NCBI GenBank assembly: GCA_016840065.1
Contig: JAEOTB010000010.1
Location: 33,629 to 97,628 of the forward strand
Length of the DNA: 64,000 nt
Source: Candidatus Hermodarchaeota archaeon
Lineage (GTDB): Archaea > Asgardarchaeota > Hermodarchaeia > Hermodarchaeales > Hermodarchaeaceae
Direction of reading: 5' to 3'
The stretch's first letter is position 1, and each line of letters begins with the position of its first letter. Shown here in pieces: positions 2,021 through 12,631 of the stretch. The notes under the pieces are model-generated. The model searched no databases, was not told the origin of the DNA, and was given only the letters and a program-made list of their open reading frames with translations. Made by a program: the position numbers and the translations under genes.

Positions 2021-2126
2021 TCTGTGATAACTTTGAAAGTGCTTTCGCACTAATCTATTGATAGGTAACTTTATCATTAATCTTGTACACTTCTTTCTAG
2101 GAGATTCTATAGGAGTTGATGTTTAA

Positions 2127-3134
2127 TTGGAGCTCCGAGATTTATTGGTACGCGGCATAAACCCAATCTTAAATCCCCATGGATTGAACTCTAGTCTTGA
2201 TGAGTTTCTTTCTGTTTATGGCGGTGGATACCTAAAAAACATCACATCAGTTGTCAAAGATGTAACTGGCCGCACTTATTACTTGAGTAAAATGGCGCCG
2301 GCTGACGAGAAGTATCCCTCTTTCTTCACCGACCTTCTAGATGCAGCCGAATCAATTGGGTTTGTAGTTAGTGCCTACGTCAACGTTTTCGCTGATACGT
2401 TCTATGCTACAGATACAAGGTTTGCAGCTCATCGTGGTAATGGTCAAGGTCTCGAAGTGTTTGTATGTCCGAACAAACCCGAATTTCACAAACACATGAT
2501 TACAGTCGTGAAAGAAGTAGCAAAATACCCAATTCCAAGGCTTTTCCTAGGGAATCTGGGTTATGCTAGAAAAGACTGTTGTGTATGCGAGGATTGTCGC
2601 GCTGAATTTTCTAAGTATCTTGGTATTCGATATGAATTAGAAGGACCAAGTGCAATGGACCAAGAACAATATCAGAAGTGGGTTTTCTGGCGTCTGATGA
2701 AGATTAATGATATTGTACAACGTCTTGTAGAGGCAGCGAAGGAAGTGAATCGCGATTTGGACGTTATTCCTACTTTTCCCGTTGACTCTGAACTAGGTTT
2801 CTTGGAGAATTTCAAGACAGGGTTTGGCATAGACATTCAAACTATAGCAAGAACCGCCAATCATTTGGCTCTTGAAATAAGCCCCTACACACCTATTCTA
2901 CCCGATCCTGATGGTCCTGAATTCACTAAATTTGTAGATAATCTAAGTTTCATTTCAGACCTTCGCAGTGAAGGAGTTGACATCCATATTATTCATGGGG
3001 TCCTAGAGAATGAGGAGGAATATAGCCACGCAAAAGCACTCGCTGAAGCAGTTGGACTTAGGCAATTCTATACTCAGATGACTTATCCTCCTAGGTTTCG
3101 AACACTCCGTGAGGAAAGGCTAGGGCTCCGCTAA
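2127..3134 (+). CDS. Glycosyl hydrolase-like (GHL10/GH42-like) TIM-barrel protein, possibly non-catalytic
   Basis: CPNKPEF followed by the CxCxxC Zn motif (CCVCEDCRAEF) and WVFWR, as in GHL10/GH42-like proteins. Confidence 0.55.
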   Translation: MELRDLLVRGINPILNPHGLNSSLDEFLSVYGGGYLKNITSVVKDVTGRTYYLSKMAPADEKYPSFFTDLLDAAESIGFVVSAYVNVFADTFYATDTRFAAHRGNGQGLEVFVCPNKPEFHKHMITVVKEVAKYPIPRLFLGNLGYARKDCCVCEDCRAEFSKYLGIRYELEGPSAMDQEQYQKWVFWRLMKINDIVQRLVEAAKEVNRDLDVIPTFPVDSELGFLENFKTGFGIDIQTIARTANHLALEISPYTPILPDPDGPEFTKFVDNLSFISDLRSEGVDIHIIHGVLENEEEYSHAKALAEAVGLRQFYTQMTYPPRFRTLREERLGLR

Positions 3135-3150
3135 ATCGGGGCGAAAGATT

Positions 3151-3789
3151 ATGACAGAAGCAATTTCTCGACTCGAAGAACTTTACCGTTGGCTAATAAG
3201 TGCAGAAGTAACTACGAAACAAGAAATGGCAGCAAAAGCTGAAATTCTCTCCCTTCTTCCTCAAGTCAAAGCTGCGATACATTCAGAAGATTCACCTGAA
3301 GCAAGACAACTAGCTGAGAAGTTTGAGAAACTCCATGAACATATCACCCGATGGAATCCACTAACAGCTTGGTTCCGCGATGATGAAGTCATTGGGGAAA
3401 TCTTCTTTGAACTCCTCTCAAAAGTTCGGCTCATGTTGATTAGGCAGCAAGGTTCATCCTCTGGCCAATCAGCTTTAGTTACTGAGAGTCTGGAGTCAAT
3501 ACGCCAGACTGTCACTCAGCTTGCGGCTCGCGTTGATGAGCTTCAGAGTACGATGAAGATTATTCGTGAAATCATATCTCCAACCGAGGAGCAATGGCAG
3601 TTATACCAACGCATCGTAGGGTTATCTAACCGAGCCAATGAGCTAGAGCGCCGCATTGCAGAATTTGAATCCGGTGATGCTCCAAAAACCGAAGCTGATA
3701 GAGCAAGGATTGTAAAATGGAAAGAGGGTTTCCAAAAGCTGAATAAGCAAATTATCGCACTACGTAAACTGGCACTTCAAAGCAGATAA
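3151..3789 (+). CDS. Coiled-coil hypothetical protein
   Basis: 212-aa helical, heptad-rich ORF 16 nt downstream of the preceding gene. Confidence 0.7.
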   Translation: MTEAISRLEELYRWLISAEVTTKQEMAAKAEILSLLPQVKAAIHSEDSPEARQLAEKFEKLHEHITRWNPLTAWFRDDEVIGEIFFELLSKVRLMLIRQQGSSSGQSALVTESLESIRQTVTQLAARVDELQSTMKIIREIISPTEEQWQLYQRIVGLSNRANELERRIAEFESGDAPKTEADRARIVKWKEGFQKLNKQIIALRKLALQSR

Positions 3790-3824
3790 GCCTACTAAAC
3801 GCCTTCTCATTCTCGGGAAATCTG

Positions 3825-4631
3825 TTATTTCTGACTCCTTCTACAACGAGTGCAGAAATCAACTCCCACTCGCAAATCCTGTCCACAATGAACACAAAAA
3901 CGGTGGAAAGTACCAGTGGTTGAGCTAGGTGCAGTTGAATGTGTAGGGTGTTCGTGTCTTTGTTCCTCTTTGGCATATCTTCGCTTTGGGGTAAATGGTG
4001 CCTGTGGGGTGGTTCTATCACGAGAGGCGCTAGCAGTTCCGGAATGATGCTTATAACCACCGGAGCTGCTCTCAAAAAGACCACCAATATCGATTATAGT
4101 GTCTGAAGTTTTTGAGTGATGGGGTGCCGTGTGAGTGCTACCTCTTTCGTGATGAGTAGCTTGTGCTGACCAACCTCGTCTAGTTTCAAGGCTTCTCTCA
4201 CCCGTTGCTACTGCTGCAGAATGAGGAGTTGGTTGAGGTGCTGGTTGAATTAGTATTTCGTGGGGCCATCTCCGCTCCGCTGAATGTAAGAAGCGCTGAT
4301 GACACTCTTGTTGAATCGAACTGTATTCATCCTTACTCATTCCTAACAGCTGGAGTGCATCATCTCTAAGGCGACATTCTCGGGAAAGATCGCAACAAAA
4401 AGCAAGACTCCCGAAACAGGTGACTGACATGGCCTGAGCAGCTGATATCTTTGTGAGAGGGCGAATACGATGATTCCCGATGAAAAGCACGCCACCAACA
4501 TCGCGTACTTGTGTCATTGCCTGCTCTTCTAGAGCACTTATGACCTCTCTAGCAGAATAGGCTTGTCCATTAATGATAACAAGTCCTCGCCGCTGATACT
4601 GACCCATAATTATCTGAACCTCCGCTCCCAA
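3825..4631 (-). CDS. Methanogenesis-marker-9-like Cys domain protein with a C-terminal zinc ribbon
   Basis: TCFGSLAFCC-x5-C-x2-RD-x-AL motif, low-complexity linker, C-terminal CVHC...CTRC. Confidence 0.65.
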   Translation of the reverse strand: MGAEVQIIMGQYQRRGLVIINGQAYSAREVISALEEQAMTQVRDVGGVLFIGNHRIRPLTKISAAQAMSVTCFGSLAFCCDLSRECRLRDDALQLLGMSKDEYSSIQQECHQRFLHSAERRWPHEILIQPAPQPTPHSAAVATGERSLETRRGWSAQATHHERGSTHTAPHHSKTSDTIIDIGGLFESSSGGYKHHSGTASASRDRTTPQAPFTPKRRYAKEEQRHEHPTHSTAPSSTTGTFHRFCVHCGQDLRVGVDFCTRCRRSQK

Positions 4632-4802
4632 AGAAGGCGACTTAATTCTTTAATTTTACCTATCGTTGAAATAGGTGTAGAGCCTCTGAAACATCGTTTT
4701 AAGAATGCAAAAACTGGGAATATCACTGTTTATTAGGTTTGTGCGCCCTTTCATCACAGAAAACCTTTAAGCTAAAGGGGAAAAACTCGCGTTGAGAAAG
4801 AA

Positions 4803-4991
4803 ATGACTATTGTCACGTGCCCGAAATGCCAATTCCGATTTGATACAACGTACGGTCGTGCTATGGCCTGTGGGGGTTGTCCATCAGCCACATTGGGCAA
4901 TTGTGGGCATGCTAAATGTCCAAAATGCCAGCACGAATTCTCACTAGATACACAATCAGAAGGAACAACATATGGACGCCGCGTCACATGA
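4803..4991 (+). CDS. Small Cys-rich zinc-ribbon protein
   Basis: 62 aa with CPKC, CGGC, C and CPKC; TTTAAG TATA-like box upstream. Confidence 0.7.
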   Translation: MTIVTCPKCQFRFDTTYGRAMACGGCPSATLGNCGHAKCPKCQHEFSLDTQSEGTTYGRRVT

Positions 4992-5012
4992 TATACTTTC
5001 TCTATTCTCTGC

Positions 5013-7907
5013 TTAAACAAGATAAAGGGCTGGACGTCCAGGCAGTGCCTTAGATGCGCGGTTCTCAGGATCTTCCGATGGATTATCCGAATCTTGGATA
5101 ATTACAGTAAGTCCAGTTTCGGATTGGATGAGGTCAATGCTATCGGAAAGTGCCTGTAGCTCAGTAGCTTTGTCCGCGAAAGTCCAGAAGCCACCAGCTT
5201 TAGCGACAGCTTTAACAAGTTCGCCAATATCCTTTCCTCTCTCACGATGGTCTGGATCTGACATCAATACTGGCATTAGGTCCTTGATAGTTAGAGGTTT
5301 TTGTGAGGCATGAAGTTTTGAAAGGGCATCAAACTTCCAACTTGGACTAGTGTAGATGTGTACAGTTTTTGGTTGTTTGCTTTTGAGTAAACCCTTGACT
5401 TCCTTAATGTCAGCGATTGTCTGTAAAACTACCTCAATAGCTTTCTCCACTTTTTCGTCTTGGAATTGTTTTTCAACACCTGGCCATGACTCAAGTGAAA
5501 TGAATGAGATGTTACCCATTCTCTCCCAAATCTCTTCGCAAAGATGAGGAATGACTGGTGATAGAAGCTTCACCCATCTTTCAGCTACATAGCGTAGAAC
5601 TTTGTTTCGCTCAGGTTCATTGTTCTTCATTCTACGTTGGTAATACTCAACATGATTTTGGAGCTTGAAGAAAGCTTCTAGAATGTAGGTTCGGAATCGA
5701 TACTGTTCTAAGGCTTCTGTGGCTATATCGATTATTGTATTGACCTTAGATAGAAGCCATCGACTCGTGAGATTCAAACTTGCTGGCTCTAACGAAGCGA
5801 GTTCAATCTTAGTACTTGAGACAAGTGTGCGAACTAGCCGGTTCAGCCTTCGACGAATAGTAACTACTTCTTTGTCGCGCCAATCAATCAAGGTCGCTAA
5901 ATCGCCTATCTGACTGATGTATAGTCGGAAAAGATCAGCAGAATAACGCTTGGGAATCTCGGCCATCGGTATTACATTGCCCTTGCTCTTACTCATCTTC
6001 CTGCCTTCTAGAATTACAAATTCGTTCAACGTTATTGTCTTTGGCCAGTGGCGTTCAGGGAAAATGGCTGTATGATGATAGATGAAGAAGGAAAGATGAT
6101 TCGGTATGTGGTCATATGCGGTGTGGCGGTGCTCGTTTGGATACCAGTACTCAACTTCATTTCGCATAGTTTCAAGTAACGAGGGAGGTATTTTTGTTTG
6201 CTTTGCTACTTTGTCGATTTCTCCTTCTCCTAGCAATACAAAATCGAAGAATCCTTGGGTTAACTGGTCTGCCTTGATTCTATGCTCGCGTAAGTGATGG
6301 ATGATAAGGTAGAAGCTCATATAGATTGTTGAGTCTGAGAGGGATTCGATTATCCAGCGCTTATCGAAGGGAAATGGTGTGCCTAGTCCGCGTCTACGGG
6401 CACAAGGTCGTTCCCCAAGCCAATCGAATGTTGTCTCAAAAAGGCGCCTATAGCTTTCAGGAAATATTACCATCTGTTCTAAGGCTGAAGTCGCTTGTTC
6501 CTTCCATTCGGGGTCGCCGTAATTTATGAACCATTGATCTTGTAGTACTGCGACAATCGCATCAGTGCCGCAGCGGCAGATTACAGGTTTTCGATCAGGC
6601 TGGTAGAATCGAAAGGCTCGATTCTGCTCCTCTAAATATGCGATGACATCATCCTTGATTTCATTAACGCGGCGTCCGGCGAATGGTCCACAGTTGTCTT
6701 TCATGGTGCCTCCGTAATATTCAGCTTTGTATAGGATTTCGGTGGCTTCCTCTAATTTATCTGCCTCTTCTTGGCTAGTGATTTTCATCTTCTCTACAAT
6801 CTCTACTGCAGGGTGTTCGCCATACCCTTCAACAGTAATTATCGAGATTGGCTGAATTGACCTAGTTGCATAGGTACCAAGCTTGAAACTTCGTATCCTC
6901 TTGACATCTGCTTGAAGGTCACGAAGCGCCGCCCAATCAAAAGGCGCATGTGAAGGGACACTGTAGACGACGCCTGTTGCATTCTCAGGGTCTACAAAAT
7001 CGGCAGGAAGAATCGGAATATCTCGGTCTTCAACCGGAGATGAGCAGGATTTTCCAATGAACTTCTGTCCTAAATGTTCGGATACGTGTACTACTTTATG
7101 GCCTTGTTTGCGTAGCTTGTTTATTGCGGGTTTGGCTATATACCAATACTCCTCTCCAACTTTGATTTTTACAATAATGCTTTTCGGGTTCACCCAGATG
7201 TTGGTCAACCCATAAACAGTTTCAGGGCGAAGAGTAGCAGCCACTAGAAAACCATCATTAAAAGGAAATTTGATGGCTACGAACTCTGATATCTTGGCAT
7301 GCTCGCCTTCTAAAAGATCATCCTCGCCTACTGCATTGTTACAGGATGGGCAATAGAGAATTGGGTAAGCACCTTTGGTGATATATCCTCGCTTCTTCAA
7401 CTTGTTGAACTGCCAAGTAACGAAGGCATGATACTCTGGGTCGTTTGTTGTGAATTTCCTCCGCCAATCAACCGAATATCCCACCTTACGGAAGTCTCTT
7501 TCAATGTTTCCACTGAAAAACCGTGCTATGGACATGGGGTCAGTGAAAGAACCAAGAATCGTCTCAACTTCTTTCTTAGGGCGATAAAGCCTGATGTGCC
7601 CACGATACTCCTTCAAGATAGTGGGGTCCTTGTCCTGGATACGTCTAGCGACACCGAAAACTGGAGTACCAGTTACATGTGCAGCCATTGGCCAAAGGAC
7701 ATTGAAGCCACGCATGCGTTTGTAACGTGCAATGATATCACCAATAGTATATGGGCGACCATGACCCACATGTAGTGGTGCGTTAGCATATGGATAAGGC
7801 ACCGTTATGTAAAACTTAGGTCGTTGTGGGTCTGGATCTGCTAGGAATGCCTCAGCTTCACGCCAACGCATCTGCCACTTCGGTTCAATATCCTTAAAGT
7901 CAATCAA
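5013..7907 (-). CDS. leuS: Leucyl-tRNA synthetase (archaeal type)
   Basis: PYPYANAPLHVGH (HIGH), KMSKS, CP1 editing domain, C-terminal KALPGRPALY. Confidence 0.98.
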   Translation of the reverse strand: MIDFKDIEPKWQMRWREAEAFLADPDPQRPKFYITVPYPYANAPLHVGHGRPYTIGDIIARYKRMRGFNVLWPMAAHVTGTPVFGVARRIQDKDPTILKEYRGHIRLYRPKKEVETILGSFTDPMSIARFFSGNIERDFRKVGYSVDWRRKFTTNDPEYHAFVTWQFNKLKKRGYITKGAYPILYCPSCNNAVGEDDLLEGEHAKISEFVAIKFPFNDGFLVAATLRPETVYGLTNIWVNPKSIIVKIKVGEEYWYIAKPAINKLRKQGHKVVHVSEHLGQKFIGKSCSSPVEDRDIPILPADFVDPENATGVVYSVPSHAPFDWAALRDLQADVKRIRSFKLGTYATRSIQPISIITVEGYGEHPAVEIVEKMKITSQEEADKLEEATEILYKAEYYGGTMKDNCGPFAGRRVNEIKDDVIAYLEEQNRAFRFYQPDRKPVICRCGTDAIVAVLQDQWFINYGDPEWKEQATSALEQMVIFPESYRRLFETTFDWLGERPCARRRGLGTPFPFDKRWIIESLSDSTIYMSFYLIIHHLREHRIKADQLTQGFFDFVLLGEGEIDKVAKQTKIPPSLLETMRNEVEYWYPNEHRHTAYDHIPNHLSFFIYHHTAIFPERHWPKTITLNEFVILEGRKMSKSKGNVIPMAEIPKRYSADLFRLYISQIGDLATLIDWRDKEVVTIRRRLNRLVRTLVSSTKIELASLEPASLNLTSRWLLSKVNTIIDIATEALEQYRFRTYILEAFFKLQNHVEYYQRRMKNNEPERNKVLRYVAERWVKLLSPVIPHLCEEIWERMGNISFISLESWPGVEKQFQDEKVEKAIEVVLQTIADIKEVKGLLKSKQPKTVHIYTSPSWKFDALSKLHASQKPLTIKDLMPVLMSDPDHRERGKDIGELVKAVAKAGGFWTFADKATELQALSDSIDLIQSETGLTVIIQDSDNPSEDPENRASKALPGRPALYLV

Positions 7908-8162: not shown

Positions 8163-8921
8163 ATGTCTACTCTTCGATGCCCTCAATGCCACCATAGAGT
8201 CCATCCACAGGATCCGACTTGTGGGTTCTGTGGCTTTAGGTTTAGATATGATCGGTTTGAGCGGGTTCTTCCCTTTATGCGGAGACCAGAACGTCGCTGG
8301 CAGGGACGGCTTTCACTAAGGCAACGTTTGTGGTCGACACTAACTGTTCCAAGCATCGCTTTCTGGGACATCGCCCGGGACCCTGACAGAGCCGGACCGT
8401 TTCTAATATTCCTTGGAAACATTCTCTCCATATCTCTCTTTTACCTCCTGATAATAATGAAGACCACTAGTACTGCGAGTCTTCTCTATGGCTTTTTAGG
8501 GGTCTTCCTGATATATTCTCTTCTTCATCTGGTCTACAATCTACTCTTCTACGGTATAATACACATCATTATCCGTCTTTCAGGAAGGAAGGGGCCGTTC
8601 GGGGACACATTCATCCTTGGTCAATACTCTGCATTGCCTCTGCTGCTCGCTAATCTACTATCACTAGTAGTTCTGGCAATGTTTCTACCTTCTGTTCCAG
8701 TTTCAGAATTAATGTTCATAGTCTATCCTTACCAGTCTATCTGGCTTGTTTTCTGGATTCTCACAGCCATAGCCTCACTGTGGGGAGCAGTTCTCCTGGC
8801 ATTGGGAATTCGTGAGCGCTATCATATGTCAACCAGTTTAGCATTCATGGCTACATTCACGGTAACGGTGATAGTTGTAATGCTAGGAATATTTGCCAGA
8901 CTTTCATTGCCGATTATTTAA
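8163..8921 (+). CDS. Yip1-family membrane protein with an N-terminal zinc ribbon
   Basis: CPQC...CGFC, then LTVPSIAFWDI and about 5 TM helices with YSALP and GIRERY, typical of Yip1. Confidence 0.75.
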   Translation: MSTLRCPQCHHRVHPQDPTCGFCGFRFRYDRFERVLPFMRRPERRWQGRLSLRQRLWSTLTVPSIAFWDIARDPDRAGPFLIFLGNILSISLFYLLIIMKTTSTASLLYGFLGVFLIYSLLHLVYNLLFYGIIHIIIRLSGRKGPFGDTFILGQYSALPLLLANLLSLVVLAMFLPSVPVSELMFIVYPYQSIWLVFWILTAIASLWGAVLLALGIRERYHMSTSLAFMATFTVTVIVVMLGIFARLSLPII

Positions 8922-9945
8922 TGAGAACAAGAAGCTTTAGGGGTTGAGCGAGGCTCTTATCATTAATGAAAATTGGCTCCTTCTTCTTCACGCGCATTCG
9001 CCCGAGAATCTGGTCGTCGGATAATATTCGTCCCCGGAACATAATCTTGGGGGCTAATAGCCCAAAGGTCATGATGAGCCTGTTCTTCAACTCGGTTACG
9101 GATTCACCTCGACCAACCGTGAATATCTCACCTTTTATCCGGAACCGATCACTGCAAAGAAAACAATTTGGATTCAAAGCTAACTTGAGAGTGGTGAATC
9201 TCTGGTAGAGGCCATCATAGAAAAGGAAATTATCAAGGGCTTTACCAATACCCAGCAAATGCTTAAGCGCTTCTTGAAACTGAATACCAGCGATGACAGT
9301 AGCCACACTCAATAACGCAGGAAACTTGGGAGGCGGCTCCTCAGTCTTACGACGCTGACCTGGTGGAGTGCAAGCCTTCTGTAAACGCTCTTGAGGGATG
9401 AGGGGCTGACATTCTAAGCAGGGAGTCTGAAACGGAATAACCCGTTGCACATTTCCCCACCACCCAAACATACCTCCATGGATTAGTGGTTTCTTTTTTT
9501 GTACGCAGAGGGAGTTGAGCCAGCGGCGTGCTTCGAAGTTGTCAAGCCCATCTACAATGAGGTCTACTTCGTCCCAGATGGTGTGGGGGACCTGCTGGAT
9601 GGCTCTGTTTAGTGAGAGGACTTGGACATCAGGGTTTGCTGCTCGGAGTCTTTGGCCTGCTATAACCGCCTTTGGTTCTCCAATATCTTGGTCAGTGTAA
9701 AGGAATTGTCGGCTCAGATTAGACATTTCAATTGTATCGTAGTCAACAACTACTACTTTTCCTATCCCTGTAAGAACAAGATCAAGTGCAGTTATGGTAC
9801 CTAGTGCGCCAACACCAGCCACGAGCACAGAGGAACGTGCCAGTTTTTCCTGATCCCAACCATCCATCAAGAGTTGCCTTGCATATCGATCAAATGTATG
9901 ATAGATAGGTGGGCGCTTTTCCTCTGGCTTTGCTTGTTCTACCAC
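8914..9945 (-). CDS. Ubiquitin-activating enzyme E1 (ThiF/UBA domain, catalytic Cys, C-terminal ubiquitin-fold domain)
   Basis: DRYARQ, GVGALG, DYDTIEMSNLSRQFL, GLDNFEARRWLN, CLEC, catalytic ACT, CFLC. The likely start is GTG at 9945 after GAGGT. Confidence 0.93.
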   Translation of the reverse strand: MVEQAKPEEKRPPIYHTFDRYARQLLMDGWDQEKLARSSVLVAGVGALGTITALDLVLTGIGKVVVVDYDTIEMSNLSRQFLYTDQDIGEPKAVIAGQRLRAANPDVQVLSLNRAIQQVPHTIWDEVDLIVDGLDNFEARRWLNSLCVQKKKPLIHGGMFGWWGNVQRVIPFQTPCLECQPLIPQERLQKACTPPGQRRKTEEPPPKFPALLSVATVIAGIQFQEALKHLLGIGKALDNFLFYDGLYQRFTTLKLALNPNCFLCSDRFRIKGEIFTVGRGESVTELKNRLIMTFGLLAPKIMFRGRILSDDQILGRMRVKKKEPIFINDKSLAQPLKLLVLIK

Positions 9946-9947
9946 AG

Positions 9948-10409
9948 CTAAGACCTCTGTATTTGGTCCCATCCAGCATGACGGCGTATCCATTCACGGA
10001 CGGTTCGTTCAAACTGCGCTGGGTTCTGTTTGACTTGGCGTGCAGCACTCTGATTTAGCGGGTCATCGGGGTTAGGGAAGTTCAAGAGATTACGCAAGGT
10101 TTCAACGAGACCAGTTAGTGAAGTGCTAGGTAACCAATCCTTTCCTATAATCCCAACACACACTCGTCCCCTATGAATGTTAGGGTGCCATATCTTGGTT
10201 ACGAATCGAACCTTTGGCGGCTCATATGGGAACGCTCGAGGAACTATAATCTGAATTACAAAGACTCCTCCGTCGTAAACCCCAGTACCAAGGATGAAGC
10301 CCTGCCAGCGTCTAAGATCGCCATTGATTGGCTGGAATGAGGGCTCCTCAGTTTCCATGCTCTTCGCTTCTAGGGCAAGCCTTGCCCAAAAGTCCTCTTC
10401 TGATAGCAT
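9948..10409 (-). CDS. Ubiquitin-conjugating enzyme E2
   Basis: FPYEPPKVRFVTKIWHPNI-x4-VC (catalytic Cys), PNPDDPLN. Confidence 0.96.
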   Translation of the reverse strand: MLSEEDFWARLALEAKSMETEEPSFQPINGDLRRWQGFILGTGVYDGGVFVIQIIVPRAFPYEPPKVRFVTKIWHPNIHRGRVCVGIIGKDWLPSTSLTGLVETLRNLLNFPNPDDPLNQSAARQVKQNPAQFERTVREWIRRHAGWDQIQRS

Positions 10410-10605
10410 ATATGATACGCCTCGGTGGGAAAAACGTTCCCTGACTCAGAGATTTGTCATCTGCCTTGAATATTTTTTCGGTATAAAAATATATATTTCG
10501 GACGAAATTGCCCTCGTCTATCATAAATTTAGCATAACTTCTCGATAGAGTTGCATAATAAAGGGAGGGAGTGGCGCCCGTGAGGTGCACCATTCCTAAA
10601 GAACC

Positions 10606-10842
10606 TCAGCCACCTTCAGTTCGAGTGATGAGGTACAAAACATCCGAGTGTGTTATTCCTTCTCCCTTTATGGTCTGTTCATCGTTCATCTGATGACCAC
10701 GGTAGCTTAGAACGACGATGTTCGGAGGGATGCGTCGCATCTGAGCAACCTTCCGTCGGATTTCGCCGATCGTAGTGTTCGGTTCAACCTCTAGGAAGAC
10801 TGAATCGCCACCACCGATTGCAGGTCGGATTTCAATACGCAT
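10606..10842 (-). CDS. Ubiquitin (eukaryote-like, encoded as the mature form)
   Basis: Beta-grasp fold with LEVEP and IPP, C-terminal RTEGG; sits in the E1/E2/E3 cluster. Confidence 0.95.
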   Translation of the reverse strand: MRIEIRPAIGGGDSVFLEVEPNTTIGEIRRKVAQMRRIPPNIVVLSYRGHQMNDEQTIKGEGITHSDVLYLITRTEGG

Positions 10843-10851
10843 TTTAACTAC

Positions 10852-11097
10852 TCACCTTTTGACGGGTTTCAATTTTCTCAATGGGATGCGCGAACGACAA
10901 ATCGGGCAGACTCCTTTGACCTTCACCCATTCAGCGAGGTGGCCGTAATGGGCGGGGTTTCCGCATTTCGGACAGAACACTTTGGTCTGTCCTTCGCGAA
11001 TCGGTAATCCACAGACGCTGCATTGTTGCTGAGGAGTGGTCCAATCCCACGTCCCAATTTCTTTGATACGTGTGATTACGAATCTATCCTCAGTCAT
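10852..11097 (-). CDS. Small RING finger E3 ligase
   Basis: CSVC...CPKC...HYGH..EW...CPICR, immediately upstream of ubiquitin. Confidence 0.9.
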   Translation of the reverse strand: MTEDRFVITRIKEIGTWDWTTPQQQCSVCGLPIREGQTKVFCPKCGNPAHYGHLAEWVKVKGVCPICRSRIPLRKLKPVKR

Positions 11098-11261
11098 TGT
11101 AGCATTCCTTGTCGTTTTCGCTTGGCTCCTCTACTAAGCGCGTTAATAAAAATCTATGCAACTAGAGCTGATTAATTGTAGATACTTGTGGAGTGATTAA
11201 TCAAAGCTTTTAAGGCTGGTGTGAGTTACCTTGAACGTGCGCTTCAGGGGCGGATAATGCT

Positions 11262-11789
11262 TTGTCAGAGGCACCAAAGTTTAAAATTGAGATTGAAGCA
11301 ATTAAGACACCCAAAGGATTAGTGCCTACTGTTGAATCTCTGAGGCGAATAGTCAAAGCGCTCAATGTACTTGACGCAGATTTTAATCGGATGAATCTTA
11401 AAATGGAGGCAAATATTCGTGCGCTCCTTCGGGAGGTAAAAACACTACAGAAGCTAGTGGCTGACGACACAATAGCCTCCGAGTCATCTGTGGAGAGACT
11501 TGGCATCCTTGTTGAAAGAATGGATTCGCTAGAGAAGAACTTGAGAAAACGAAAGGCAGCACCTGCTGACGACTCTACAGCCGCATCTTTGAAGGCACTA
11601 AAGCGGGAGATCACTCCTACTCTTACAAAGGCTGCTAAGCGTTTGGAGGAAACAATGGCGCTCTTTGAACGACGTCTTGACGAGTTTCTCCGCGAACTTA
11701 AGAGTAGTATACTTCTTGCAGTTCGCCAAGCCACTTCTACATCTTCTTCTCCAAAGTCTACTTCAAGAAGGCGCTCTGGAAGGAGCTAA
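11262..11789 (+). CDS. Coiled-coil protein heading the ESCRT-I/II operon
   Basis: 175-aa heptad-rich ORF with a basic Ser-rich tail. Confidence 0.7.
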   Translation: MSEAPKFKIEIEAIKTPKGLVPTVESLRRIVKALNVLDADFNRMNLKMEANIRALLREVKTLQKLVADDTIASESSVERLGILVERMDSLEKNLRKRKAAPADDSTAASLKALKREITPTLTKAAKRLEETMALFERRLDEFLRELKSSILLAVRQATSTSSSPKSTSRRRSGRS

Positions 11790-11863: not shown

Positions 11864-12631
11864 GTGAGTTTTATGGCACAAGCAGTGCGAAGGAAAACAG
11901 AAATGGCGATTGCTCGCGAAGCCCAGTTGATGTTCCGCAGGGCCCCAACATTCGCTCCTGTAGGCAACAATCTGCGTCGATGGCGCGGAAAAATTAAGGG
12001 TGGTCCACGTGGTAGAAAGGAATTCCTCGTTGAAATCATTGTGCCACCCAACTTCCCGGCTCAGCCGCCAGTTGCTCGCATGTTGACGCCAACGAAACAT
12101 CCTCGAGTAGATAGTGAATCTGGTGCTATTCATTTACGAATCGTAACTCAATGGCAGCCTCATTATCACATCTACCAAGTTGTAAACAGTATCAAGGGCC
12201 TCTTTGCTAGAGAACCTCCAAAAGTGGATGAAACCCAAGAACCTCCAGAGGTTGAGATGCCTGAAAGCGAAGAACTTCTGCAACGACGGTATCAAAGACT
12301 GGAACGAGAAGTCTCTCAACTCACTAGGAAGATTCAGGAACGTGATGAGCAGATTGCTCGGTTGTCTGCTCAAAGAGACACACATCGAATTCCAGTGAGT
12401 GAAGCATCAGGTGAAGAAGAAATCGATGCACTAATCCTACCAAGTGATCCAATGGAACGTCAAAAACTTGAGCTAGAGAGTGAAAGGCTAGCCATTGAAG
12501 ATTTGCTACAAAACTTAGAGGAGAAGTTTGAAAACGCTGAAATTACAGCCACAGAGTATACCAAGCTCTACAAGCGGTACAAGCGTCGTCTCTACCAAAT
12601 CGAGAAAGCTCTTCAGGAGCTAGGTAAATAG
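11864..12631 (+). CDS. vps23: ESCRT-I Vps23/TSG101-like protein (UEV, coiled coil, steadiness box)
   Basis: E2-like fold lacking the catalytic Cys (HPRVDSESGAIHL), coiled coil, C-terminal IEDLLQNLEEKFENAEITATEYTKLY. Confidence 0.9.
   Translation: MSFMAQAVRRKTEMAIAREAQLMFRRAPTFAPVGNNLRRWRGKIKGGPRGRKEFLVEIIVPPNFPAQPPVARMLTPTKHPRVDSESGAIHLRIVTQWQPHYHIYQVVNSIKGLFAREPPKVDETQEPPEVEMPESEELLQRRYQRLEREVSQLTRKIQERDEQIARLSAQRDTHRIPVSEASGEEEIDALILPSDPMERQKLELESERLAIEDLLQNLEEKFENAEITATEYTKLYKRYKRRLYQIEKALQELGK

What the first reader, a model, noticed from the sequence alone, without database searches (positions are those of the whole stretch)
10852..11097. RING E3 with an Rbx1/Apc11-like N-terminal cullin-binding strand
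Seen: RFVITRIKEIGTWDWTT precedes the first CxxC. This mirrors Rbx1 (RFEVKKWNAVALWAWDI) and Apc11 (KVKIKCWNGVATWLW) in the WxW motif and its spacing to the RING. Established: this strand completes an intermolecular beta-sheet in cullins and Apc2. Inference: a precursor of cullin-RING ligases, implying an unknown scaffold partner. No cullin is visible in this window.
Basis: partly seen in the sequence, partly recalled or inferred. Interest (0 to 1): 0.7.

Follow-up and report, generated by a model that had tools for sequence, protein, structure and literature searches.

The report
Asgard RING ligase with docking arm
This is the already-known small RING ubiquitin ligase of an Asgard-archaeal ubiquitin operon. 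Its conserved front arm lines up with the strand that eukaryotic Rbx1/Apc11 plug into cullins, but no cullin was found, and the arm behaves as a portable plug that travels with a hairpin-headed coiled-coil protein encoded next door.

Summary
Window 10852-11097 (-) encodes an 81-aa RING protein heading a RING-Ub-E2-E1 operon in an Asgard ubiquitin-ESCRT cluster. The arm RFxIxxVKxIGxWDW is conserved in 12 or more GTDB Asgard families. It aligns in register with real Rbx1 and Apc11 sequences, with the same RF-to-WxW and WxW-to-Cys spacing.

Statistical support for that likeness is modest:
- hhalign probability 81-84%
- in-place shuffle 1/300
- arm alone 13/400
- HMMER tests negative

The RING itself is generic, with no third zinc site and zf-rbx1 below cut-off. 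No cullin or Apc2 scored over cut-off in the own genome, and no cullin in 301 Asgard genomes.

The arm is already published as the "N-loop" (bioRxiv 10.1101/2023.07.25.550441), said to aid UEV-Vps23 binding.

The best partner candidate lies in the window: gene X (11262-11789, +), a beta-hairpin head on a long helical hairpin. It is adjacent to the RING in 55 of 64 genomes. The arm-head pairing recurs with a paralogous RING and with a UFC1-like E2, each next to head-bearing AAA+ ATPases.

This works like a cullin-RING ligase, but membership and descent are not shown. Earlier follow-ups of this scan on other genomes reached the same reading.

The parts
10852..11097 (-). Small RING E3 gene (81 aa), first gene of the RING-Ub-E2-E1 operon
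   Evidence: ORF; Pfam zf-RING_2 27.9 bits against a cut-off of 27.3; AF2 RING core pLDDT 85-95; Foldseek hits to RING/U-box folds; a 91%-identical homologue is named 'RING finger protein [Promethearchaeota archaeon]'
11041..11085 (-). N-terminal arm, residues R5-W19 (RFVITRIKEIGTWDW)
   Evidence: Family consensus RFxIxxVKxIGxWDW; G15 and W17 invariant, R5, F6 and W19 present in at least 90%; one copy per genome, found in 12 or more GTDB families; pLDDT about 58 and no secondary structure in the monomer model; aligned in register with the Rbx1/Apc11 strand
10894..11022 (-). RING domain, C26-R68. Ligands are C26, C29 / C42, C45 / H50, H53 / C64, C67. W57 and R68 sit where the E2-contact Trp and the linchpin Arg are expected.
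   Evidence: Invariant columns in A5; alignment to the RING-H2 protein EL5; functional residues I30/W58/R69 of the C. subterraneum srfp are described in PMC5654768
10606..10842 (-). Ubiquitin (78 aa) that ends in GG directly before the stop codon
   Evidence: Pfam ubiquitin E 8e-12; translation
9948..10409 (-). E2 (UQ_con)
   Evidence: Pfam UQ_con E 5.5e-34
8914..9993 (-). E1 (ThiF) with a weak ubiquitin-fold match near the C-terminus
   Evidence: Pfam ThiF E 6e-64; ubiquitin E 0.0057 at residues 291-338
11098..11261 (.). 164-bp divergent intergenic region between the RING gene and gene X
   Evidence: Coordinates; the head-to-head arrangement recurs in most related loci
11262..11789 (+). Gene X (175 aa; apparently the preprint's asCOG005522): small N-terminal beta-hairpin head plus a long helical hairpin. 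Candidate docking partner of the arm.
   Evidence: AF2 pLDDT 79, strands 13-16 and 19-22, helices 24-97 and 104-159; adjacent to the RING in 55 of 64 genomes; no cullin likeness
11277..11333 (+). X head, residues 6-24 (KFKIEIEAIKTPKGLVPTV), the most conserved part of X
   Evidence: A8: T16, P17, G19 and V21 invariant; alignment; the same head occurs on AAA+ ATPases encoded next to other arm-bearing enzymes
11864..12631 (+). UEV-Vps23 (ESCRT-I), the published substrate and weak arm-dependent binder of the Helarchaeial RING E3
   Evidence: Pfam UQ_con, Vps23_core and UEV matches; preprint 10.1101/2023.07.25.550441

Best explanation
The gene encodes the small RING-type ubiquitin ligase (srfp type) of the Asgard ubiquitin operon. 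Residues 26-68 form a generic two-zinc RING that should activate the operon's E2~Ub; this is inferred from conserved W57 and R68 and from published activity of orthologues. Residues 5-19 form a conserved arm that is disordered on its own and serves as a docking element. The most likely socket is the beta-hairpin head (IKTPxGxVPTV) of the coiled-coil protein X encoded head-to-head with the RING gene. On this reading the arm would add one or two strands to X's hairpin, tethering the catalytic RING to a long helical stalk. X heads the ESCRT-I operon (X, UEV-Vps23, Vps28), so this tether would place the ligase beside its published substrate UEV-Vps23. The arm-head pair looks modular, because the same arm sits on a paralogous RING and on a UFC1-like E2, each encoded next to an AAA+ ATPase that carries the X head. 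The principle resembles Rbx1-cullin (a catalytic module anchored by an N-terminal strand to an elongated helical scaffold). X is not a cullin, and common descent of the arm with the Rbx1 strand is not established. Shown here: the sequences, their conservation, the gene linkage and the monomer models. Inferred: physical arm-head binding, its strand-addition geometry and the link to ESCRT-I.
For: RING identity and operon. Orthologue activity: PMC5654768 and the preprint. Arm conservation. Arm copy number: one per genome, in families f1, f2, f7, f8, f12, f14, f15, f18, f20, f28, f30 and f31. The arm is unstructured in the monomer model. X is adjacent (same contig, within 1.6 kb) in 55 of 64 genomes where both were located (tables; loci). 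Three gene orders occur: divergent in most genomes, RING then X in f27 with no Ub, E1, E2 or UEV within 8 kb (L039), and X then RING in G129 (L058). In f27 and f7 the UEV-Vps23 gene lies on other contigs; in f27 the RING-X pair stays together. Every family that has the arm also has X; f4 (0/31), f9, f13 and f23 lack both. Portable arm, case 1: in f18, all 6 genomes have a 74-aa arm-bearing RING divergent from a protein made of an X head, a coiled coil and an AAA+ domain. Portable arm, case 2: in f28, f30 and f31 (5 genomes with enough flanking DNA), an arm-bearing UFC1-like E2 lies next to an X-head AAA+ ATPase, both co-directional and divergent. X model: a small hairpin plus a long helical hairpin.
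Against: Part of the adjacency could simply reflect the conserved order of the whole Ub-ESCRT cluster. In f7 and f8 the RING and X are not adjacent. The only experimental data point to a different partner: deleting the N-loop weakened binding to the UEV domain about 3-fold, at sub-millimolar KD. No consistent compensatory changes between arm and head were seen. Related genomes are not independent samples. The UFC1 assignment is over the Pfam cut-off for only one member.
Confidence: 0.55

Rival explanations
1. One reading: the arm is homologous to the Rbx1/Apc11 cullin-binding strand and inserts into the beta-sheet of a still unrecognised cullin- or Apc2-like scaffold, so this protein is a precursor of cullin-RING ligases.
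For: hhalign places the arm in register with Rbx1 (probability 84%) and with Apc11 (80.7%). The arm alone picks the same register. Shuffle controls give 1/300 and 13/400. The conserved positions 1, 2, 4, 7, 10, 11, 13 and 15 coincide in both families. The arm is unstructured without a partner, as I recall is the case for free Rbx1.
Against: No Cullin, Cullin_Nedd8 or ANAPC2 match scored over cut-off in the own genome (84% complete), and no Cullin match in 301 Asgard genomes. The RING lacks the third-zinc insert, and zf-rbx1/zf-ANAPC11 stay below cut-off. Rbx1 ranks only 32nd and 40th among structural matches. The arm-only HMMER tests are negative. The hypothesis was formed after seeing the match. 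X, the linked neighbour, has no cullin-like fold or sequence.
Confidence: 0.15
2. The arm is a substrate-recognition loop that binds the UEV domain of UEV-Vps23 directly, as proposed in the 2023 preprint. On this reading X is only a neighbour within the ESCRT-I operon.
For: SPR in the preprint: the UEV domain binds the full-length Helarchaeial RING E3 (KD 2.6e-4 M), and deleting residues 1-19 weakens binding about 3-fold. UEV-Vps23 K201 is mono-ubiquitinated by the E1/E2/RING cascade. UEV-Vps23 is encoded 767 bp from the RING gene in this window.
Against: The affinity is very weak and the effect small. In f27 the RING-X pair is kept while UEV-Vps23 lies on another contig. The arm also occurs on a paralogous RING and on a UFC1-like E2, and the constant neighbour of those is an X-head AAA+ ATPase rather than a UEV protein. 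The two readings are not exclusive, since X could bridge the RING to ESCRT-I.
Confidence: 0.2
3. The arm mediates self-association of the RING (an oligomeric beta-sheet) or binds the backside beta-sheet of the cognate E2, raising E3 activity without any scaffold.
For: Long-form orthologues in f15 and f27 carry three tandem copies of a strand-like unit, the last of which is the arm (DPHYIEL / DGVYIET / DGNYVALE...GSWDW). This pattern often mirrors oligomerisation of single-copy forms. Many RING E3s act as dimers or carry E2-backside binders (general knowledge).
Against: This does not explain why X-head proteins are the constant neighbour in three different enzyme contexts. There is no structural test; the long forms were not folded.
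Confidence: 0.1

Closest known systems
Asgard RING E3 of the ubiquitin-ESCRT cluster (Helarchaeial enzyme, bioRxiv 10.1101/2023.07.25.550441) and the archaeal small RING finger protein srfp of Caldiarchaeum subterraneum (PMC5654768)
   Same: It is a small single-domain RING encoded with Ub, E2 and E1. The Trp and linchpin Arg positions are conserved. It has the conserved N-terminal region that the preprint calls the N-loop (residues 1-19). It lies in the same cluster with UEV-Vps23 and an uncharacterised protein the preprint calls asCOG005522, apparently gene X here.
   Different: Nothing essential differs in the gene itself; it is an orthologue in another Asgard lineage. Three things appear to go beyond those papers: the in-register likeness to Rbx1/Apc11, the tight RING-X linkage, and the arm's occurrence on other enzymes next to X-head AAA+ ATPases. 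The term 'Rbx' does not occur in PMC5654768. My reading of the preprint and my paper searches turned up no Rbx1 comparison for this arm.
Rbx1/Rbx2/Apc11, the catalytic RING subunits of cullin-RING ligases and the APC/C
   Same: Each is a small RING protein with an N-terminal [KR]-[FV]-x-[IV]...W-x-W segment just before the first CxxC. The spacing is the same and conserved positions coincide. The arm is not folded on its own. The implied principle is a catalytic RING tethered by an N-terminal strand to an elongated helical partner.
   Different: There is no third zinc site or insert. The ligand order is C4H2C2 rather than C3H2C3 plus extra ligands. Pfam zf-rbx1/zf-ANAPC11 stay below cut-off. 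No cullin or Apc2 was found. The candidate partner X is a hairpin plus coiled coil, not a cullin. Statistical support for homology of the strand is modest.
Cullins / Apc2 (compared with gene X)
   Same: Both are elongated and mainly helical, carry a small beta element that could accept a strand, and are linked to a RING protein.
   Different: There is no sequence or fold match. X has 175 residues against more than 700 in cullins, with no cullin repeats, no 4-helix-bundle/alpha-beta/winged-helix C-terminal domain and no neddylation site region.

Membership tests
Archaeal/Asgard small RING E3 (srfp type) of E1-E2-RING ubiquitin operons | Cross-brace RING with eight zinc ligands | tested here: met
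   C26, C29, C42, C45, H50, H53, C64 and C67 are invariant in A5. zf-RING_2 scores 27.9 bits against a 27.3 cut-off. AF2 pLDDT is 85-95. Foldseek hits RING/U-box folds with E down to 1e-4.
Archaeal/Asgard small RING E3 (srfp type) of E1-E2-RING ubiquitin operons | Encoded in an operon with ubiquitin, a UBC-type E2 and a ThiF-type E1 | tested here: met
   The order RING-Ub-E2-E1 on the minus strand spans 8914-11097. The same order is seen in related loci.
Archaeal/Asgard small RING E3 (srfp type) of E1-E2-RING ubiquitin operons | E2-contact Trp and linchpin Arg/Lys after the last Cys (W58 and R69 in the C. subterraneum srfp) | tested here: met
   W57 is invariant. R68 directly follows C67 in the window protein. 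The functional roles are taken from PMC5654768. No direct alignment to the C. subterraneum protein was made.
Archaeal/Asgard small RING E3 (srfp type) of E1-E2-RING ubiquitin operons | Conserved N-terminal region ('N-loop', residues 1-19 of the Helarchaeial enzyme) | tested here: met
   Arm consensus RFxIxxVKxIGxWDW; the preprint describes the region.
Archaeal/Asgard small RING E3 (srfp type) of E1-E2-RING ubiquitin operons | E3 activity in an E1/E2/Ub reaction | not testable with these tools
   Shown only for orthologues.
Rbx1/Apc11 family | N-terminal strand motif ([KR][FV]x[IV]...WxW) about 6 residues before the first CxxC | tested here: met
   In-register hhalign alignments. Spacing is identical in the window protein. 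Statistical support is modest and the HMMER tests are negative.
Rbx1/Apc11 family | RING-H2 with the extra insert forming a third zinc site | tested here: not met
   Only 12 residues lie between C29 and C42, against 29 between the equivalent Cys residues in Rbx1. hhalign has to open a 14-residue gap.
Rbx1/Apc11 family | Match to Pfam zf-rbx1 (PF12678) or zf-ANAPC11 (PF12861) over the curated cut-off | tested here: not met
   The best E-value among 22 family members is 0.0014. The window RING is not among the own genome's best sub-threshold hits.
Rbx1/Apc11 family | Cullin or Apc2 partner encoded in the genome | tested here: not met
   No match over cut-off for PF00888, PF10557 or PF08672 in the own genome (84% complete). 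For PF00888, 0 of 301 Asgard genomes were over cut-off. A structure-based search of the proteome was not possible.
Cullin (for gene X) | Cullin repeats and a cullin-homology C-terminal domain | tested here: not met
   The AF2 model is a hairpin plus two long helices. Foldseek gives no match with E<=0.001. The PDB profile search finds only coiled-coil noise.

The most novel reading that the evidence does not exclude
The arm-head pair may be a modular plug-and-socket system that recruits ubiquitin-family enzymes (a RING E3, a paralogous RING, a UFC1-like E2) to coiled-coil or AAA+ scaffolds in Asgard archaea. The Rbx1/Apc11 N-terminal strand may descend from this arm, which would mean the two-part 'RING plus elongated scaffold' architecture of cullin-RING ligases predates eukaryotes.
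Probability: 0.15. Interest if true: 0.85.

Novelty: new variant of a known kind. Interest (0 to 1): 0.55.

Why it matters
Cullin-RING ligases and the APC/C are central to the eukaryotic cell cycle and proteostasis. In the papers I searched I found no report of a cullin in Asgard archaea and no account of a prokaryotic origin for these ligases.

The Asgard operon RING may already work as a two-part ligase, anchored by an N-terminal strand to a helical scaffold that heads the ESCRT-I operon. If so, it would offer a concrete, testable archaeal analogue, and possibly a forerunner, of that architecture. It would also explain how the ligase is brought to UEV-Vps23.

The arm's presence on a UFC1-like E2 and on a second RING, each next to head-bearing AAA+ ATPases, suggests a general recruitment code for ubiquitin-like systems in these archaea.

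The gene itself and its N-loop are already known, so the value lies in the partner hypothesis rather than in the gene.

Tried and rejected
I obtained context through the genome search and the fetch from genomes instead.
- **Arm-only profiles against the PDB**, with or without CxxC, gave only chance hits such as neuraminidase GQWDW and an LPXTG protein. No Rbx1 or Apc11 appeared.
- **A 15-column HMM of real Rbx1+Apc11 strands** did not separate arm flanks from other archaeal RING flanks.
- **Intramolecular fold-back of the arm** is not supported by the AF2 monomer model.
- **Cullin, Cullin_Nedd8 and ANAPC2 searches** gave nothing over cut-off. Weak hits also occur in control genomes.
- **X as a cullin-like or otherwise known fold** was rejected; only coiled-coil noise was found.
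- **Charge-swap covariation** between the arm (WDW versus WKW) and the head (KTPKG versus STPLAD) looked attractive in the f18 paralogues. It is contradicted by L038 and L043, so I dropped it.
- **Rosetta-stone fusions of arm-RING with X:** none was found. P0022 and P0062 are longer RING proteins with partial arm-like segments but no X head.
- **No RING phylogeny was attempted.** The domain is too short and the eukaryotic sample too narrow.

Full report
**What is there**

Window 10852-11097 (minus strand) is an 81-codon ORF starting with ATG. It is the first gene of a minus-strand row:
- RING, 10852-11097
- ubiquitin, 10606-10842, ending in GG directly before the stop codon
- UBC-type E2, 9948-10409
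- ThiF-type E1, 8914-9993

Diverging from this row on the plus strand are a 175-aa coiled-coil gene (X, 11262-11789), UEV-Vps23, Vps28 and EAP30/Vps22. Further along lie Vps25, Vps4 and two Snf7 genes. This is the ubiquitin-ESCRT cluster described for Asgard archaea (PMC9192718; preprint 10.1101/2023.07.25.550441). A 91%-identical homologue is named 'RING finger protein [Promethearchaeota archaeon]' by NCBI.

**The RING**

- The zinc ligands are C26, C29 / C42, C45 / H50, H53 / C64, C67, invariant in 22 diverse orthologues. W57 is also invariant, and the window protein has R68 after the last Cys.
- Pfam zf-RING_2 is just over its cut-off, at 27.9 against 27.3 bits.
- The AF2 model has pLDDT 85-95 for residues 23-75.
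- Foldseek finds ordinary RING/U-box domains first (TRIM37, a WDR19 RING-like domain, Prp19, TRIM21, EL5). Rbx1 appears only at ranks 32 and 40.
- There is no Rbx1-type insert or third zinc site. hhalign has to open a 14-residue gap to align the two.
- zf-rbx1 is sub-threshold, with a best E of 0.0014 among 22 members. In the own genome the window RING is not among the best sub-threshold zf-rbx1 or zf-ANAPC11 hits.

**The arm: conservation**

RFVITRIKEIGTWDW is residues 5-19. The exhaustive representative search and the genome searches show that the motif RFxIxxVKxIGxWDW is kept down to about 35% overall identity. G15 and W17 are invariant, and R5, F6 and W19 are present in at least 90%. A profile of the arm plus CxxC finds one copy per genome in families f1, f2, f7, f8, f12, f14, f15, f18, f20, f28, f30 and f31. 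It finds none in f4 (0/31), f13 or f23, and only one weak hit in f9 (1/135).

In the monomer model, residues 1-20 have pLDDT about 58 and no secondary structure. The second refutation test, intramolecular fold-back, therefore also fails to refute, within the limits of a shallow-alignment monomer model.

**Is the arm Rbx1-like?**

I fetched real Rbx1 and Apc11 sequences using short typed probes, which returned hits 100% (Rbx1) and up to 99% (Apc11) identical. The alignments are A6 and A7.

Evidence for the likeness:
- hhalign of the Asgard family (A5) against Rbx1 gives probability 84% and pairwise E 7.6e-6. The alignment starts at the arm and is in register: RFiIs-vk-VG-WDWt over RFEvKKWNAVaLWaWDI.
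- Against Apc11 the probability is 80.7%, again in register.
- The 21-column arm profile without the CxxC picks the same register in full-length Rbx1, with score 14.6 and HH P 0.0086.
- Controls: 13 of 400 column shuffles of the arm reach that score. Shuffling the arm columns in place within the full alignment drops the score from 35.7 to about 29, and 1 of 300 shuffles reaches the observed value.

Evidence against, or weak:
- The arm alone against Apc11 gives P 0.076.
- HMMER arm-only profiles do not retrieve Rbx1 or Apc11 from the PDB.
- A mini-profile of the eukaryotic strands does not separate arm flanks from 137 other archaeal RING flanks. None of those 137 flanks has WxW/F near the CxxC.

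My verdict is that the likeness is real and in register, with modest statistical support. Homology is possible but not shown, and the comparison was chosen after the fact.

**Is there a cullin?**

- Pfam Cullin: no match in the own genome, which is 84% complete. None was over cut-off in 301 Asgard genomes; 8 weak hits were no better than those in control genomes.
- Cullin_Nedd8 and ANAPC2: nothing over cut-off in the own genome.
- The papers I searched report no Asgard cullin.

**What is already published**

- PMC5654768 shows that the C. subterraneum srfp is an active E3 requiring I30, W58 and R69. It makes no mention of Rbx.
[quoted passage not shown] The UEV domain of UEV-Vps23 binds the E3 with KD 2.6e-4 M, and deleting the N-loop weakens binding about 3-fold. 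UEV-Vps23 K201 is mono-ubiquitinated by the cascade.
- The arm as such is therefore known, with a weakly supported partner.

**A better-linked partner: gene X**

The most conserved part of X is its N-terminal head, k-x-I-x-I-x-A-I-K-T-P-x-G-x-V-P-T-V, with T16, P17, G19 and V21 invariant. AF2 (pLDDT 79) gives a small beta-hairpin (13-16 and 19-22) followed by a long helical hairpin (24-97 and 104-159). It has no cullin-like or other specific match.

Linkage between the RING and X:
- Combining the tables, the best RING hit and the X hit lie on the same contig within 1.6 kb in 55 of the 64 genomes where both were located. Several of the exceptions involve very short contigs.
- The order is usually head-to-head. 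In f27 it is RING then X with no Ub, E1, E2 or UEV within 8 kb (L039). In G129 it is X then RING.
- UEV-Vps23 lies on other contigs in f27 and f7.
- Every family that has the arm has X.

**The arm is portable**

- In all six f18 genomes, a second 74-aa RING with the arm (E-[KR]-Y-I-T-L-T-K-[RH]-F-[LV]-G-x-W-K-W-N-C) lies head-to-head with a 459-463-aa protein. That protein has an X head (RRIxVDYISTPLADVPTV), a coiled coil and an AAA+ domain.
- In f30, f28 and f31, a UBC-fold protein carries the arm at its very N-terminus. Examples are MDDLFNIKFVRGKIVGHWDWT and MDDLDFNITLGEVKGYWNWK. It is UFC1-like: Pfam UFC1 scores 28.6 against a 25 cut-off in one member and is sub-threshold or undetected in the others.
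- In the five genomes with enough flanking DNA, this protein is adjacent, co-directional or divergent, to an AAA+ ATPase that begins with an X head (…EFEIKRITTPQGDVPTV…, …IVIERIATPEGDVP…, …KIEKIGTPAGD…). In G307 a ThiF E1 is next to it.

Three enzyme contexts with one constant neighbour feature argue that arm and head are a functional, probably physical, pair.

**Mechanism proposed**

The RING domain activates E2~Ub. This is inferred from conserved residues and from the activity of orthologues. The arm docks on the X head, probably by strand addition to its hairpin; this is inferred and not tested. X's helical stalk, as the first gene of the ESCRT-I operon, plausibly joins or approaches UEV-Vps23/Vps28 and so delivers the ligase to its substrate; this too is inferred.

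This works like Rbx1-cullin in principle. Membership in the Rbx1/Apc11 family fails on the RING type, the Pfam thresholds and the missing cullin. X fails every cullin test.

**Limits**

- There was no multimer prediction and no experiment.
- The alignments behind both structure models are shallow.
- Related genomes are not independent samples.
- The adjacency counts were compiled by hand from the tool tables.

**Relation to the rest of this scan**

After completing my own analysis I looked up earlier notes. Seven follow-ups on other genomes reached the same reading: the arm is weakly Rbx1-like, there is no cullin, and the arm travels with a neighbouring hairpin-plus-coiled-coil gene. One of them also describes the portable plug. 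This scan has therefore found this feature before on other DNA.

Noticed in passing
L033, L036, L050 (f15) and L039, L046 (f27); proteins P0024, P0031, P0053, P0065: Long-form orthologues of the RING (126-146 aa) carry three tandem strand-like units before the RING, for example DPHYIEL / DGVYIET / DGNYVALE...GSWDW. The last unit is the arm. This hints that the arm pairs with like strands.
   Followed up: partly
L059 (G307:C220) 2744-6219; also L072-L076: A second ubiquitin-like conjugation cluster: a ThiF E1, an arm-bearing UFC1-like E2 and an X-head coiled-coil AAA+ ATPase, followed by another Walker-A protein. It occurs in GTDB families f28, f30 and f31. No Ufm1-like modifier gene was identified.
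   Followed up: partly
L057 (G038) 2110-4573 and L061-L065: The f18 genomes have a paralogous 74-aa arm-RING head-to-head with an X-head AAA+ ATPase. It is flanked by a 235-301-aa protein with a C-terminal RING; in L057 that protein also has weak M48/SprT-like peptidase matches.
   Followed up: partly
protein P0062 (316 aa): A RING protein whose long N-terminal region, which looks by eye like winged-helix repeats (not tested), is followed by an arm-like segment (AIGNWEF) directly before the RING.
   Followed up: no
window 10606-10842 (-): The ubiquitin gene ends in Gly-Gly-stop, so no C-terminal processing is needed. I saw no JAMM/Rpn11 gene among the cluster genes I annotated.
   Followed up: no
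window 8914-9993 (-): The E1 has a weak ubiquitin-family match at residues 291-338 (E 0.0057), possibly a C-terminal ubiquitin-fold domain. The E2 and E1 ORFs overlap by 46 nt (9948-9993).
   Followed up: no
L003 (G078:C40) 2739-2891 in record coordinates: A weak match (E 7e-4, below cut-off) to positions 552-604 of the Pfam Cullin model in a 519-aa ORF of an f16 genome. It is probably a winged-helix-like chance hit.
   Followed up: no
window 8163-8921 (+): A Yip1-domain membrane protein sits beside the E1 gene. The same neighbour recurs in L038, L043 and L053.
   Followed up: no
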